Shown: in pieces, positions 53,232 to 56,826 of the stretch
Position numbering within the stretch: the stretch's first letter is position 1
How the letters are laid out: the number at the start of each line of letters is the position of its first letter
Made by a program: the position numbers and the translations under genes
The notes under the pieces: model-generated
Seen by the model: the letters and a program-made list of their open reading frames with translations, nothing else
The model's database searches: none
What the model was told of the DNA's origin: nothing
IMG/VR virus record: IMGVR_UViG_3300021066_000001
Direction: 5' to 3' (one strand)
Length of the DNA stretch: 64,000 nt
Source of the DNA: a virus
Lineage: Duplodnaviria; Heunggongvirae; Uroviricota; Caudoviricetes

Positions 53232-53654
53232 CTAGTCGACGAGCCGCAGGTCGAAGTTAACGAAGTCCTTACCTTGCATGCCCGACTCGGAGTAGCTGAT
53301 CTTGGTGATCAGCTTGATCGGCTTGAGGAGCTTGCGGATCTCGTTCTCGAGGCCTTCGTCGGTGTACAGGTCACCGATGAAATCTAGCCTGTAGATGTGA
53401 TTCTTAGCCTCAAGCGCGAGGTAGACGTTCAGCGAGGCGAAGTGAGCCAGGCTGTCGTGGTCGTACGTGATCGTTCGCGTGTTCGTGATCACAAACTTAA
53501 CTGGCCCGTCGTGCTTGGCGTAGAGACCTGGCTTGCCACCGAAGGCCTTGACGGTCTTCCCGACTAGCGCGGCCTTGACCTTCTTGGCGAGGTCTGAGTC
53601 GTCAGATGAGGTCTTAGCTTCAACGACGCTAAGCAGGGTTTCAAGAATCTTCAT
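53232..53654 (-). CDS. protein with CTS-like N-terminus (MKILETLL..VE)
   Basis: TAAATA at 53660. Confidence 0.65.
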   Translation of the reverse strand: MKILETLLSVVEAKTSSDDSDLAKKVKAALVGKTVKAFGGKPGLYAKHDGPVKFVITNTRTITYDHDSLAHFASLNVYLALEAKNHIYRLDFIGDLYTDEGLENEIRKLLKPIKLITKISYSESGMQGKDFVNFDLRLVD

Positions 53655-53791
53655 GAGGCTATTTACCTAGCCGAGTCGGGCGTTCATGTATTCTAGCATC
53701 TTGATCGCTAGCTCGTGTGGCACCTTGCAATGCTTGATCATGTTAGTGACGAGGTCGATCTTATCCTTCTTATGAATGTCGACGTACTACG

Positions 53792-54382
53792 CTAGATCGG
53801 GTGCACGTTCTTCTCAATCCACGTCATCGCGTTCCGCCACCCGTGAGCGTTCGCCTTAGCATCGTTGAGAGCGTGGTGGATCGGAAGCTTGTTCTCGACG
53901 AAGTAGCTCATTAGGCCCTGGCCGAAGGCCTCGGCCGCACCCTCGCACTTCTGATTCATGTTCGGCACCGCGAGCTGACTGCACCGGATCACGACGCGAT
54001 GGAGCAGATCATTGTTGATCAGAGTGAACGCCTTGTTAACCTTGGGCAGGAGGCTCAGGTCAGTTTGAAGCAGGTCGAGCATCAGCTCCCAGTCGGTCGC
54101 ATAGTCAACCGTGACGTAGAGCTTCTCGTCCCCAGGCAATCCTTGAGCGAGCTCACCCAGCCAGAGGCCGAACTCGAGCGAGGCTTGCATGTACGTCTTG
54201 CCGTGCTTTGGGAGATCGAGGAGGGGCTCGACGACCTCTCTGACGAAGCTCGATGAGAGCCGGCGATCGTAGTCGCTGATCTCAACGTAGTACTCGTTCA
54301 TGAGGTCCTCGGTCACCGCTCCGAGCGAGATGAGATGGGGATCTAGAAAATCTGAGAACTCCGTGTCTATGAAAAGTTTCAC
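53792..54382 (-). CDS. DEDDh 3'-5' exo(ribo)nuclease (Rv2179c-like)
   Basis: FIDTEF, LISLGAV, DW, HHALNDA. Confidence 0.8.
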   Translation of the reverse strand: MKLFIDTEFSDFLDPHLISLGAVTEDLMNEYYVEISDYDRRLSSSFVREVVEPLLDLPKHGKTYMQASLEFGLWLGELAQGLPGDEKLYVTVDYATDWELMLDLLQTDLSLLPKVNKAFTLINNDLLHRVVIRCSQLAVPNMNQKCEGAAEAFGQGLMSYFVENKLPIHHALNDAKANAHGWRNAMTWIEKNVHPI

Positions 54383-54424: not shown

Positions 54425-55207
54425 ATGCTTCTCAATGAGCTCATCGGCGTCAAGCGCTTCCACGGAAAGAGCACGGGCGATCTCATCAAGATGGCGAGAC
54501 GCTTCGGGATCAAGTTCGTCGGGAGCGGAGAGTATGGACAGGTCTTCACTCACGACAGGTGGCCTTACGTGATCAAGATCATCGAGAACGATCCGGCCTA
54601 TCTTGACTTTATTGATTTCGTCATCAAGCATCCTAGCAAGCACTACCCGAAAATTGTCAAGCGGCCGTTGAAGCTTCACAAGTTTCACACTCGCGAGGAC
54701 TCAGGCAAGGACTTTCTATGGGTAATCAAGGTCGAGAAGCTCAAAGAGCTTCACGCCGAGATCGCTCGCTTCATCGCGGACTATCTCGAGAACGCGTCTA
54801 GCTTGCTCAACCGCATGGAGCACGGCAAAGATGAGCTAGATCGTGAAGCTCCGAAGATCGAGTACCGCATGCCTGACGGATCTGTCATGAAGATCCAGCA
54901 GCGAGAGCTGTTCGACCGGGTACCTTGGTTTAAGTCGCTCTGCAAGGCGTACATGGAGATCAGCCTCCACGTCGATTGGTCGCCTGACATCAAGGAGGAT
55001 AACTTCATGATGCGAGATGACGGCACGATCGTGATCATCGACCCGGTCTGGGTCGGCGAAACTCCGCAGCAAGTACATGACCGCTTCATGCGCGCGGAGC
55101 TTGATCTTGATGACTTTCCTGAGTTTACCTCTGGTCCCAGCTACAAGAGAAAGCAACGTCAGGCTCCTCGGCGTGAGGAGCCTGAACTTGAGGACATTCC
55201 GTTCTGA
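54425..55207 (+). CDS. protein kinase-like enzyme with CTS-like N-terminus (MLLNEL)
   Basis: GSGEYGQVF, VIK, DIKEDNFM, IIDP; TAAATA at 54414. Confidence 0.75.
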   Translation: MLLNELIGVKRFHGKSTGDLIKMARRFGIKFVGSGEYGQVFTHDRWPYVIKIIENDPAYLDFIDFVIKHPSKHYPKIVKRPLKLHKFHTREDSGKDFLWVIKVEKLKELHAEIARFIADYLENASSLLNRMEHGKDELDREAPKIEYRMPDGSVMKIQQRELFDRVPWFKSLCKAYMEISLHVDWSPDIKEDNFMMRDDGTIVIIDPVWVGETPQQVHDRFMRAELDLDDFPEFTSGPSYKRKQRQAPRREEPELEDIPF

Positions 55208-55220
55208 GGTAGGTGGTTAC

Positions 55221-55964
55221 CTATTTCGGTAGCTCTAATTGCTCGCACAGGTAAGCGTGCAATCGCCTGGTGACCTTGGCCAGGTGTTTCCTCTTGATCT
55301 TGAACGAGGTGGACTCGAAGCCACCGAACATCTCGGCGTTCGCGTGGATCTCGGCCCAAGCCGTCAGGAGGAGCGTCGGCGCCAGCGGATGCTTGCAAAA
55401 CTCGGTGATCTCCTCGCCGCGACAAGTGTGCGCCCACATGTCGAGCTTGATGAGCTGCTCGGTCATGAGCAGCAATCCAGAGTCCTTAGTCGCGTCGAAC
55501 TCCCGATTCTCGATAAACAGCTCTCGGAACACCCGAGCCGATTCGGCGGCGTGGTTCGGAAAGTGCTTCTTCCCATCAGCGTCGATCGTTAGACAGTAGG
55601 GCTTGCCGCAATCATGGAAGATGTGGTACGTGCGCACGTCCTTGGGCGGGAGGGCCACCCGGTAGAGAACGGGAGTCTCGAGAAGTGACTCCTCGGGAAT
55701 GTCCCACTTGTAGACGGTCTTTCCTGTCTCGAGGTACTCGTAGAGGTCACGATAGCGGTTGGCCACGTCGAGGCCGTGCTGGTAGATCGAGAGGCCGCGG
55801 GCCTGCTCGCACGTCTTCATCTGCTCGATCAGCTGATCGAGGGAAACCTACGGCGGAACTTCACACTCACACGGTTGCATGTAGCACTCCTGGCAAAGGT
55901 TAGGGTTGCACTGCTTGCAGTAACCTAGAAAGTCGTCGTGAGGACAACGCGAGAAGTCACCCAT
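55221..55964 (-). CDS. Cys-rich leader fused through an in-frame TAG (55848-55850) to an HD-like domain
   Basis: 38 codons, TAG, then 9 open codons in frame with the 55221-55820 ORF; HDCGKP, HFPNHA, DMWAH. Confidence 0.65.
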
Positions 55965-56224: not shown

Positions 56225-56371
56225 TTACGCATCGAGCTTCTCCCTCTTGACCTCGTCGGCGAGCTCTCGCGCCCACTTGACGTAGTGATCACTGGTTTGG
56301 TCCGAGTCCTCCTCTCGCTGAGCTGCGTACTCGAGAAACTCGACGAGCTTATCCTTGAGCTGCTGGTTCAT
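56225..56371 (-). CDS. 48-aa hypothetical protein
   Basis: ATGA coupling with pth2-like gene. Confidence 0.5.
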   Translation of the reverse strand: MNQQLKDKLVEFLEYAAQREEDSDQTSDHYVKWARELADEVKREKLDA

Positions 56372-56706
56372 GACTTCCTCCAGAGGTTGAACTGCTTGAA
56401 GAGGTGACGCTGATCTTCCGGAATCGGTTGCGTCGCGAACGACGTGAGGCCCCAGTTCTTGTACGGCTCGTGGAACTCGTACGTCTTGAGCCCGTGAGAG
56501 CGCGTCAAGTCGAGAGCAGCTTCGAGCTCTTGCTTGTCCTTTGTGTCCAGGAAGATGATGCTGGGATGACCGTCGGGCGACGGGCCGTGCTTGATGCCGA
56601 GCTCGAGGAGAGCATGTCCGGCTTGGAGCGCCTGCTGGGCGATCGGGAGATCACCGCGGAGGAAGCAGTACGTCCAGTGCTTTTGTTCGGAAACCTAGGA
56701 CTTCAT
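56368..56706 (-). CDS. peptidyl-tRNA hydrolase 2-like protein with in-frame TAG at codon 4
   Basis: YCFLRGDLP..QQALQAGHA, IIFL, YEFHEP...GLTSFATQP; ATG AAG TCC TAG GTT TCC. Confidence 0.75.
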
Positions 56707-56826
56707 AACGTTCTCCACTTGGTTCGTTGAAAAATCGTCTCGATGGCTGGCGATCCCACCCGGGACCCCAGGATTCGCACTACGGTAGAAGATATTTAAT
56801 CACAGATCGCGCGAAAAGTAAACTAC

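What the first reader, a model, noticed from the sequence alone, without database searches (positions are those of the whole stretch)
55221..55964. Second programmed-looking UAG: Cys-rich 38-mer fused to an HD-like domain, same UAG-GUU-UCC context
Seen: a 38-aa peptide with seven Cys ends at CCG-TAG-GTT-TCC, followed in frame by VSLDQLIEQ-MKTCEQ...; the downstream ATG has only a weak SD. The identical 9-mer TAGGTTTCC occurs at the Pth2 stop 850 nt upstream in the same operon. Inference: a shared readthrough signal producing either a free metal-binding peptide or the fusion enzyme.
Basis: partly seen in the sequence, partly recalled or inferred. Interest (0 to 1): 0.85.

Follow-up and report, generated by a model that had tools for sequence, protein, structure and literature searches.

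The report
Amber-gated phage HD hydrolase gene
A giant phage with the normal genetic code keeps a UAG stop codon directly in front of the conserved start of an HD-type, tRNA-end-enzyme-like gene and carries its own UAG-reading tRNA, so the full enzyme is probably made only when that tRNA overrides the stop; dozens of distant giant phages share this layout, and I found no paper describing it.

Summary
A 38-codon ORF with seven Cys ends at CCG-TAG (55850-55848). It is followed in frame by nine codons (VSLDQLIEQ) and then ATG 55820 of a 199-aa HD-fold gene. The 9-mer TAGGTTTCC occurs only twice in the 389-kb genome. The second copy is at codon 4 of the Pth2-like gene, not at its stop.

Readthrough is well supported, but by the phage's own tRNA(CUA) (1448-1522), not by a shared 9-mer signal.
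- The nine post-TAG codons have no start codon of their own. They are conserved in relatives and form most of helix 1 of a confident model.
- All six sequenced closest relatives (53-61% identity) have leader-TAG at the same position.
- 42 of 48 IMG/VR loci carry a start codon (ATG, twice GTG) plus 0-4 codons plus TAG before the Pth2-like domain, usually beside a tRNA(CUA).
- Three loci use TGA instead, and two of them carry tRNA(UCA).

This window differs in two ways. The nearest in-frame ATG is 10 codons upstream (55880, good SD), and the tRNA lies 54 kb away. The Cys-rich ORF has weak coding signal and no homologs, so a functional metal-binding peptide is unsupported. Nothing here is experimental.

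This scan has already found the same gated Pth2/HD module on many other genomes. I found no publication describing it.

The parts
55848..55850 (-). In-frame UAG, the programmed stop of this finding. It is followed by G (purine at +4).
   Evidence: The same position carries TAG in the closest relatives L132-L138. +4 purine statistics are.
55821..55847 (-). Nine codons (VSLDQLIEQ) between the UAG and the first ATG. They encode most of helix 1 of the HD-fold protein and contain no ATG, GTG or TTG.
   Evidence: Coding score 0.34 per codon and GC3 0.78, which is gene-like. L6 is at least 90% conserved and M10 invariant in alignment A3. Helix 3-12 has pLDDT about 94. L137 has VSLDDLIEQ, differing by three synonymous codons and one replaced codon.
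55221..55820 (-). HD-fold phosphohydrolase-like gene from the conserved internal Met (M10 of the full protein) to its TAG stop at 55223-55221.
   Evidence: phrog_14850, E 2e-53. Invariant H, HD, H, D, H columns. Model pLDDT 94. Best PDB matches are 3wfo-3wfs ('tRNA processing enzyme' chains), TM 0.53-0.63. AFDB hits are HD-domain and CCA-nucleotidyltransferase entries.
55851..55880 (-). Shortest possible leader: ATG 55880 plus nine codons (MQPCECEVPP) running into the UAG. AGGAG lies at 55891-55887 with a 6-nt spacer.
   Evidence: Read from the sequence. The spacing matches the GGAG before the Pth2-like ATG. A 9-codon leader exists in relative L137. Start usage is inferred, not shown.
55851..55964 (-). 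Cys-rich 38-codon ORF, the alternative and longer leader. ATG 55964 overlaps the TGA of the upstream 111-aa ORF.
   Evidence: Weak coding score (0.065 per codon, though the best of six frames). No homologs.
56368..56706 (-). Partner gene: PTH2-fold gene with ATG 56706, two sense codons, UAG at 56697-56695, then 108 codons.
   Evidence: Model pLDDT 93, PTH2 structures at TM about 0.75. 25 of 34 relatives touch PF01981 weakly.
1448..1522 (-). Phage tRNA with anticodon CUA (amber suppressor). Canonical cloverleaf, A73, encoded CCA.
   Evidence: ARAGORN. Rfam RF00005 at 65.4 bits. Sequence.
55159..55185 (-). Terminator-like hairpin just after the HD-like stop; likely end of the operon.
   Evidence: This is a consensus scan only.

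Best explanation
The UAG at 55850-55848 is decoded as a sense codon by the phage's own tRNA(CUA). Ribosomes start upstream, most likely at ATG 55880 behind an AGGAG or at ATG 55964. They run through a non-conserved leader and reach Pro-Pro-UAG. Either RF1 releases a short leader peptide, or the suppressor tRNA inserts an amino acid of unknown identity.

Only after suppression do ribosomes translate the nine codons that build helix 1, and then the rest of an HD-fold phosphohydrolase resembling the HD domain of CCA-adding enzymes. The neighbouring PTH2-fold gene is gated the same way at its codon 4. Together the two genes and the tRNA form a translational AND-gate: the two tRNA-3'-end-type enzymes appear at full length only when the suppressor tRNA is expressed, processed and charged.

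Shown: the stop, the conserved start-less codons behind it, its conservation in relatives, and its match to the suppressor anticodon.

Inferred: that suppression actually happens, which start codon is used, which residue is inserted, and the purpose of the gate (timing or lock).
For: 1. The post-UAG codons are coding and have no start codon. Their score is gene-like. L6 is at least 90% conserved and M10 invariant. They form helix 3-12 at pLDDT about 94. Against L137 they differ by three synonymous codons and one replaced codon, although overall identity is only 55%.
2. All six closest relatives whose DNA was read (53-61% identity) have SD-ATG, then 1-3 codons (9 in L137), then TAG at the same position.
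3. The same holds in more distant phages. RsoM2USA has ATG AAA TCG TAG, XacN1 has ATG AAG TAG, and 11 IMG/VR loci have it too. GAP32-like phages instead conserve TAG at codon 47.
4. In the Pth2-like gene, 42 of 48 IMG/VR loci have a TAG leader, 3 have a TGA leader and 2 have none. All 7 isolate or own genomes examined have TAG at codon 3-4.
5. Co-variation with the tRNA. tRNA(CUA) lies within 4 kb in 32 of 42 TAG loci and tRNA(UCA) in none. tRNA(UCA) is present in 2 of 3 TGA loci and tRNA(CUA) in none. L069 has TGA in both genes plus two tRNA(UCA) genes. tRNA(CUA) is present in RsoM2USA, GAP32, fHe-Yen9-04, XbC2, ME3 and this genome.
6. The base after the stop is a purine in 36/38 and 19/19 sites. 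From memory, this is the classical context favouring amber suppression (Bossi 1983).
7. ATG 55820 has no real SD.
Against: - There is no experimental evidence of any kind: no proteomics, no ribosome profiling, and no data on whether or with what the tRNA is charged.
- TAG terminates about 15% of ordinary genes here (75 of 493). Those genes show no depletion of +4 purines and no nearer backup stops than TGA or TAA genes. A strong constitutive suppressor should therefore be costly, so suppression must be weak, timed or position-dependent.
- Unlike almost all relatives, this gene has no ATG within 3 codons of the UAG. The upstream start is therefore unresolved, and the ancestral short leader may have been lost.
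- M10 is an ATG and could give an N-truncated protein, directly or by reinitiation 27 nt after termination.
- Some relatives (ME3, Arash-like, L053, L061) have no stop in the HD-like gene. The gate is therefore not needed for the enzyme as such.
- The tRNA is 54 kb away rather than adjacent.
Confidence: 0.78

Rival explanations
1. Dual products with a functional Cys-rich module. Termination at UAG yields a free 38-aa metal-binding peptide. Suppression yields a Zn-finger-HD fusion, and both are selected functions.
For: Seven Cys include two CxxC pairs, in frame with the HD gene. ATG 55964 is coupled to the upstream stop. In RsoM2USA and in L134-L136 the upstream ORF is also in frame with the HD-like gene through the TAG. 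This frame is the best of six for coding score.
Against: - The coding score is 0.065 per codon against a gene mean of 0.34 (10th percentile 0.17), and GC3 is 0.63 against about 0.8.
- No match in phage genomes, Pfam or the ESM Atlas, and no similarity to RsoM2USA gp92.
- In L073, L075, L077, L082 and L133 an in-frame stop lies 1-8 codons before the leader ATG, so no fusion is possible there.
Confidence: 0.12
2. The TAG is simply the stop of an upstream small ORF or a relic of a lost leader. The HD protein starts at ATG 55820, by direct initiation or by reinitiation after termination 27 nt upstream, independently of the suppressor tRNA.
For: An ATG is present. GenBank and most gene callers start homologs at this Met. 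This phage lacks the short ATG leader seen in relatives.
Against: - The nine codons upstream are conserved at protein level, with mostly synonymous differences to L137, and form most of helix 1.
- There is no SD before ATG 55820 here.
- The Met is an internal invariant residue in homologs that have ordinary starts 8-16 residues upstream (34 of 120).
Confidence: 0.08
3. Context-driven readthrough by a near-cognate host tRNA, signalled by the shared TAGGTTTCC 9-mer, with no need for the phage tRNA.
For: The identical 9-mer occurs at both sites and nowhere else in the genome.
Against: The 9-mer is not conserved in any relative; only the +4 purine is. The stop identity follows the suppressor anticodon across phages, which a context signal would not explain.
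Confidence: 0.02

Closest known systems
Stop-codon-recoded phages with their own suppressor tRNAs (TAG read as Gln 'code 15', TGA read as Trp 'code 4': crAss-like, Lak and others; bioRxiv 10.1101/2021.08.26.457843; PMC9523058)
   Same: A phage-encoded suppressor tRNA decodes in-frame stops in phage genes while the host uses the standard code. A regulatory or timing role has been proposed.
   Different: Here the code is otherwise standard. TAG ends about 15% of genes, and I found only two genes needing TAG decoding. The stop sits in a short, non-conserved N-terminal leader of tRNA-end enzyme genes, not scattered through late structural or lysis genes. The papers I read do not mention these targets.
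'Orphan' suppressor tRNAs of standard-code jumbo phages (XacN1, PMC5852040; RsoM2USA, PMC8504454)
   Same: The same kind of phage and the same tRNA(CUA). The XacN1 authors read through 18 amber stops in silico and could not identify targets.
   Different: XacN1's HD-like ORF364 is preceded by SD-ATG-AAG-TAG in frame. RsoM2USA has ATG-x-(x)-TAG leaders on both genes. The targets are 5' leaders, and the Pth2-like ones are often unannotated, which is why read-through of annotated gene ends missed them.
prfB (RF2) autoregulation through an early in-frame UGA (from memory)
   Same: An early in-frame stop makes expression depend on the balance between termination and an alternative decoding event.
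   Different: prfB uses a +1 frameshift and senses its own product. Here a cognate suppressor tRNA is the likely decoder, and no feedback has been shown.
Lambda bar minigenes and peptidyl-tRNA drop-off (from memory)
   Same: Two- to four-codon ORFs ended by a stop, with a functional link to peptidyl-tRNA hydrolase.
   Different: In this system the reading frame continues into a conserved enzyme. In this window's HD gene the leader is at least 10 codons long, so minigene kinetics may not apply.
Synthetic suppressor-tRNA feed-forward 'leak dampener' (PMC7969014; seen, abstract only)
   Same: An amber codon in the target gene plus a co-expressed suppressor tRNA gives an AND-gate.
   Different: That system is engineered. 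This would be a natural, conserved counterpart, and it is untested.
HD domain of bacterial class II CCA-adding enzymes (PDB 3wfo-3wfs)
   Same: These are the best structural matches, TM 0.53-0.63 with probability 1.0. AFDB hits include CCA tRNA nucleotidyltransferase HD regions. The H/HD/H/D/H columns are conserved.
   Different: This is a stand-alone 208-aa protein without the nucleotidyltransferase head, at 14-18% identity. Its activity and substrate are untested.

Membership tests
HD-domain metal-dependent phosphohydrolase superfamily | Conserved H...HD...D metal-ligand motif | tested here: met
   H24, H78-D79, H99, D136 and H140 are invariant in the 19-sequence alignment A3.
HD-domain metal-dependent phosphohydrolase superfamily | Pfam PF01966 match above the gathering score | tested here: not met
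   15.3 bits against a cut-off of 22, E 0.025. No hit at E 0.01.
HD-domain metal-dependent phosphohydrolase superfamily | All-helical HD fold | tested here: met
   Model pLDDT 94. Foldseek hits are HD domains only: 3wfo-3wfs, 1xx7, YfbR, PgpH, and AFDB 'HD domain-containing protein' entries.
phrog_14850 (phage protein family of unknown function) | Significant profile match | tested here: met
   E 2.1e-53, residues 40-240 of the read-through product matching profile positions 81-267.
Suppressor-tRNA-gated Pth2-like/HD-like module of jumbo phages (defined here from the IMG/VR and GenBank loci) | In-frame stop directly before the conserved N-terminus, with no start codon between them | tested here: met
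Suppressor-tRNA-gated Pth2-like/HD-like module of jumbo phages (defined here from the IMG/VR and GenBank loci) | Short leader: SD, start codon, 0-4 codons, then the stop | tested here: not met
   For this HD-like gene the nearest in-frame ATG is 10 codons upstream (55880). The feature is met for the window's Pth2-like gene. L137 has a 9-codon leader and L083 and L087 have 6- and 9-codon leaders, so longer leaders do occur.
Suppressor-tRNA-gated Pth2-like/HD-like module of jumbo phages (defined here from the IMG/VR and GenBank loci) | Suppressor tRNA in the same genome whose anticodon matches the stop | tested here: met
   tRNA(CUA) at 1448-1522. It is 54 kb away, whereas 32 of 42 TAG loci have one within 4 kb.
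Suppressor-tRNA-gated Pth2-like/HD-like module of jumbo phages (defined here from the IMG/VR and GenBank loci) | Actual suppression of the stop during infection | not testable with these tools
   Needs proteomics, reporters or ribosome profiling.
Globally recoded phage (genetic code 15) | TAG abandoned as a stop and present in frame in many genes | tested here: not met
   75 of 493 predicted genes end in TAG. The Pth2-like stretch is the only strong start-less coding stretch after a TAG.
Context-signalled programmed readthrough (Q-beta, TMV or MuLV type) | Conserved 3' sequence or structure that stimulates near-cognate decoding | tested here: not met
   No conserved 3' context beyond a purine at +4 across 57 distinct sites. 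RNA structure downstream was not examined.
PTH2 peptidyl-tRNA hydrolase (partner gene) | PTH2 fold | tested here: met
   Matches 1q7s, 1wn2, 2zv3, 3erj and 1xty at TM 0.69-0.76 with probability 1.0.
PTH2 peptidyl-tRNA hydrolase (partner gene) | PF01981 above threshold and catalytic residues present | tested here: inconclusive
   The window protein has no Pfam hit. 25 of 34 relatives hit weakly, best E 1.2e-6. Catalytic residues were not mapped. The genome also has a canonical PTH2 at 76.9 bits.

The most novel reading that the evidence does not exclude
The suppressor tRNA and the two stop-gated tRNA-3'-end enzyme genes form a self-contained translational checkpoint. The leader-stop measures how well a phage tRNA is being made, repaired and charged, relative to release-factor activity. 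It sets the output of tRNA-end repair and deacylation enzymes accordingly, for example as a counter-measure to host tRNA-targeting defences. In this phage the Pro-Pro-UAG end of a longer leader would replace the codon-3/4 position as the device that slows release and favours suppression.
Probability: 0.2. Interest if true: 0.88.

Novelty: new variant of a known kind. Interest (0 to 1): 0.7.

Why it matters
Many cultured jumbo phages with the standard genetic code carry an amber suppressor tRNA whose targets have been an open question. The XacN1 paper states that none could be found (PMC5852040).

The comparative data here point to specific, conserved targets: a PTH2-fold gene and an HD-fold gene next to the tRNA arrays. 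Each is locked by a stop codon that matches the phage's suppressor anticodon. This makes the question directly testable in lab phages such as GAP32, CBB, RsoM2USA, XacN1, ME3 and fHe-Yen9-04.

It also exposes systematic mis-annotation. The Pth2-like gene is unannotated or truncated in many GenBank records, and the HD gene is split or N-truncated.

It would be a natural example of the suppressor-tRNA AND-gate that synthetic biologists build. For this window, it means the 199-aa gene call is probably 10 or more residues too short at its N-terminus.

Tried and rejected
- Megablast of the locus against phage records found nothing. A single-protein scan of IMG/VR also found nothing; an alignment query was needed.
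- Pfam at E 0.01 gave no hits for any of six local proteins.
- I thought the Cys-rich ORF resembled the Cys-rich C-terminus of RsoM2USA gp92. BLASTP found no alignment, so I dropped the idea.
- The Cys-rich ORF has no match in phage genomes, Pfam or the ESM Atlas (best 0.87, below the useful range).
- Unique shared promoter. GATCTGTGAT followed by an A/T-rich -10-like element precedes both the tRNA(CUA) and the Pth2-like leader, and that extended pattern occurs only there. However, BLAST of the tRNA upstream region finds other partial copies of similar length elsewhere. I treat this as a weak hint only.
- A genome-wide regex scan for further start-plus-1-4-codons-plus-stop leaders found only ordinary genes with a nearby canonical start. 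The scan also failed to list the known Pth2-like site, so its thresholds were too strict and it is not evidence of absence.
- Same-frame neighbouring genes separated by one stop are common for all three stop codons, so that statistic does not discriminate.
- I tried to infer the amino-acid identity of the tRNA(CUA) by similarity to the phage's other 47 tRNAs. There is no close relative (best is Val-UAC, with a low score), and suppressor sequences differ widely between phages. Identity remains unknown.
- In one database entry the 'Q' at the stop position is only that caller's TAG=Q code. It is not evidence for Gln.

Full report
**What the window is.** The window is part of a single-contig 389,331-bp phage genome with 57.8% GC and 48 tRNA genes, one of which has anticodon CUA. 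The finding lies on the minus strand, near the phage's main tRNA gene arrays.

**The observation.**
- ATG 55964 opens a 38-codon ORF with seven Cys that ends CCG CCG TAG (55850-55848).
- The frame continues with nine sense codons (VSLDQLIEQ) and then ATG 55820. This ATG heads a 199-codon ORF ending at 55221.
- TAGGTTTCC occurs twice in the window (0.17 expected) and only twice in the whole genome.
- The other copy is at 56697-56689. There it is not a gene's stop but codon 4 of a PTH2-fold gene (ATG AAG TCC TAG GTT TCC ...).
- The 62 codons behind that TAG hold no ATG, GTG or TTG. They are the top-scoring start-less coding stretch in the genome.

**What the two proteins are.**
- The product from the UAG onward matches phrog_14850 at E 2e-53.
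- A 19-sequence alignment has invariant H, HD, H, D and H columns.
- Its AlphaFold model (pLDDT 94) matches HD domains. The best PDB matches are chains titled 'tRNA processing enzyme' (3wfo-3wfs, TM 0.53-0.63). From memory these are a class II CCA-adding enzyme with an HD domain. AFDB hits likewise include CCA tRNA nucleotidyltransferase HD regions.
- Pfam HD itself stays below threshold.
- The partner protein folds as PTH2 (pLDDT 93; 1q7s, 1wn2, 2zv3, 3erj, 1xty at TM about 0.75).
- The genome also has a canonical, ungated PTH2 elsewhere.

**Are the nine codons after the UAG translated?**
- They score like a gene (0.34 per codon, GC3 0.78).
- Position L6 is at least 90% conserved and M10 is invariant in the family.
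- Residues 3-12 form helix 1 at high confidence.
- The relative L137 (55% identity overall) has VSLDDLIEQ there, differing by three synonymous codons and one replaced codon. That is the signature of protein-level selection.
- No canonical start codon lies between the UAG and these codons, and ATG 55820 has no real SD.
- Of the 120 best database homologs, 34 have an ordinary start 8-16 residues before the conserved Met. 69 'start' exactly at that Met. Every such case whose DNA I read is a call cut short by an upstream in-frame stop.

**Relatives.**
- All six closest relatives whose DNA I read (53-61% identity) carry SD, ATG, 1-3 codons and TAG at the same position. L137 has a 9-codon leader and TAG GTG TCC CTG GAT, nearly the window's context.
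- RsoM2USA has ATG AAA TCG TAG.
- XacN1 ORF364 is preceded by ATG AAG TAG.
- Eleven IMG/VR loci have ATG plus 1-2 codons plus TAG.
- GAP32, XbC2, fHe-Yen9-04 and six more conserve a TAG at codon 47 instead. There GenBank annotates the gene as two CDS.
- ME3, Arash-like phages, L053 and L061 have no stop in this gene.

**The Pth2-like gene.** It is gated even more consistently. All seven isolate or own genomes have ATG, 1-2 codons, then TAG. In 48 IMG/VR loci, 42 have a TAG leader, 3 a TGA leader, 2 none and 1 is odd. In many GenBank records this gene is unannotated.

**Link to the suppressor tRNA.**
- tRNA(CUA) is present in RsoM2USA, GAP32, fHe-Yen9-04, XbC2, ME3 and this genome (65.4 bits to Rfam tRNA).
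- Within 4 kb of the Pth2-like gene, 32 of 42 TAG-leader loci have tRNA(CUA) and none has tRNA(UCA).
- Of the three TGA-leader loci, two have tRNA(UCA) and none has tRNA(CUA).
- L069 has TGA in both genes and two tRNA(UCA) genes 1.1 kb upstream.
- Among loci with a suppressor, this 32/0/0/2 split has a Fisher probability of about 0.002. The loci are not phylogenetically independent.
- The suppressor tRNAs differ widely in sequence. Since the stop sits in a non-conserved leader, any inserted residue would do.

**Context.** The only conserved 3' feature is a purine after the stop (36/38 and 19/19). The 9-mer is not general. In the HD lineage, GTT TCC encodes Val-Ser. Its nearest relatives L137 and L138 have Val-Ser and Ile-Ser at that position.

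**What is unusual here.**
- The HD gene has no ATG within three codons of the UAG. The nearest in-frame starts are ATG 55880 (AGGAG with a 6-nt spacer, giving a 10-codon leader), ATG 55964 (coupled to the upstream TGA, giving a 38-codon leader) and ATG 55997.
- The Cys-rich ORF scores poorly (0.065 per codon) and has no homologs.
- The leader ends Pro-Pro-UAG. From memory (Hayes, Bose and Sauer 2002; Björnsson et al. 1996), C-terminal Pro slows release, which could favour suppression. This is inference only.
- The tRNA lies 54 kb away rather than adjacent.

**Caveats.**
- Nothing here is experimental.
- TAG ends about 15% of genes. Those genes show no avoidance of +4 purines and no nearer backup stops. 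Suppression is therefore probably weak, timed or position-dependent.

**Literature.** Papers on XacN1, RsoM2USA, jumbo-phage comparative genomics and phage recoding do not describe these targets. The XacN1 authors explicitly found none.

**Earlier notes of this scan.** The same Pth2/HD amber-gated module was reported on many other genomes. My conclusions rest on the tests above.

Noticed in passing
window 56368-56706 (-): The Pth2-like gene's UAG at codon 4 is the stronger case of the two. The 62 codons behind it have no start codon, and the layout is conserved in 42 of 48 IMG/VR loci and all 7 isolate or own genomes examined. It is a separate first-stage finding on this window.
   Followed up: yes
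window 1530-1552 (-) and 56785-56808 (-): A similar extended -10-like element (GATCTGTGAT followed by A/T-rich TATAAT-like bases and TCTnCTAC) precedes both the tRNA(CUA) gene and the Pth2-like leader. The extended pattern occurs only at these two places in the genome. Other partial copies of the tRNA upstream sequence exist elsewhere, so co-regulation is only a hint.
   Followed up: partly
window 56651-56803 (-): Upstream of and overlapping the Pth2-like start, in another frame, a GTG-started ORF reads MIKYLLP-UAG-... and ends ...LLPPR. Other agents of this scan describe UAG-containing arrest-type leaders before such operons. I did not test whether this one is real.
   Followed up: no
window 53655-53794 (-): A 24-codon ORF (MIKHCKV...) ends TAG GTA AAT. 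It is in frame, four codons before the ATG, with the 140-aa gene at 53232-53654. Here an ordinary ATG follows at once and nothing indicates gating.
   Followed up: partly
G000:C1:380467-380898 (outside the window): A second, canonical PTH2 gene (PF01981, 76.9 bits) with no in-frame stop. The gated Pth2-like protein is therefore a distinct paralogue and not the phage's only PTH2.
   Followed up: partly
L050:1990-2012 (XacN1, AP018399.1 about 243736-243758): XacN1 ORF364 (HD-like) is preceded in frame by SD-ATG-AAG-TAG. The XacN1 paper reported that no target of its two tRNA(CUA) genes could be found.
   Followed up: yes
L069 and L105 (IMGVR_UViG_3300036781_000418, about 199.8-203 kb): A 342.6-kb phage uses TGA instead of TAG in both gated genes. 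It carries two tRNA(UCA) genes and a tmRNA gene just upstream.
   Followed up: yes
L003, L005, L006 and L055-L064 (GAP32-like phages): The HD-like gene has a normal start but a conserved GGA TAG GGC at codon 47. GenBank annotates it as two CDS. The Pth2-like gene upstream is unannotated or N-truncated in several records.
   Followed up: yes
L134:174-593: A 139-aa RF-1-domain gene lies 2.4 kb upstream of the gated HD-like gene in a metagenomic relative. By size and domain it could be ArfB-like, which is my reading only.
   Followed up: no
It is irrelevant to the finding.
   Followed up: no
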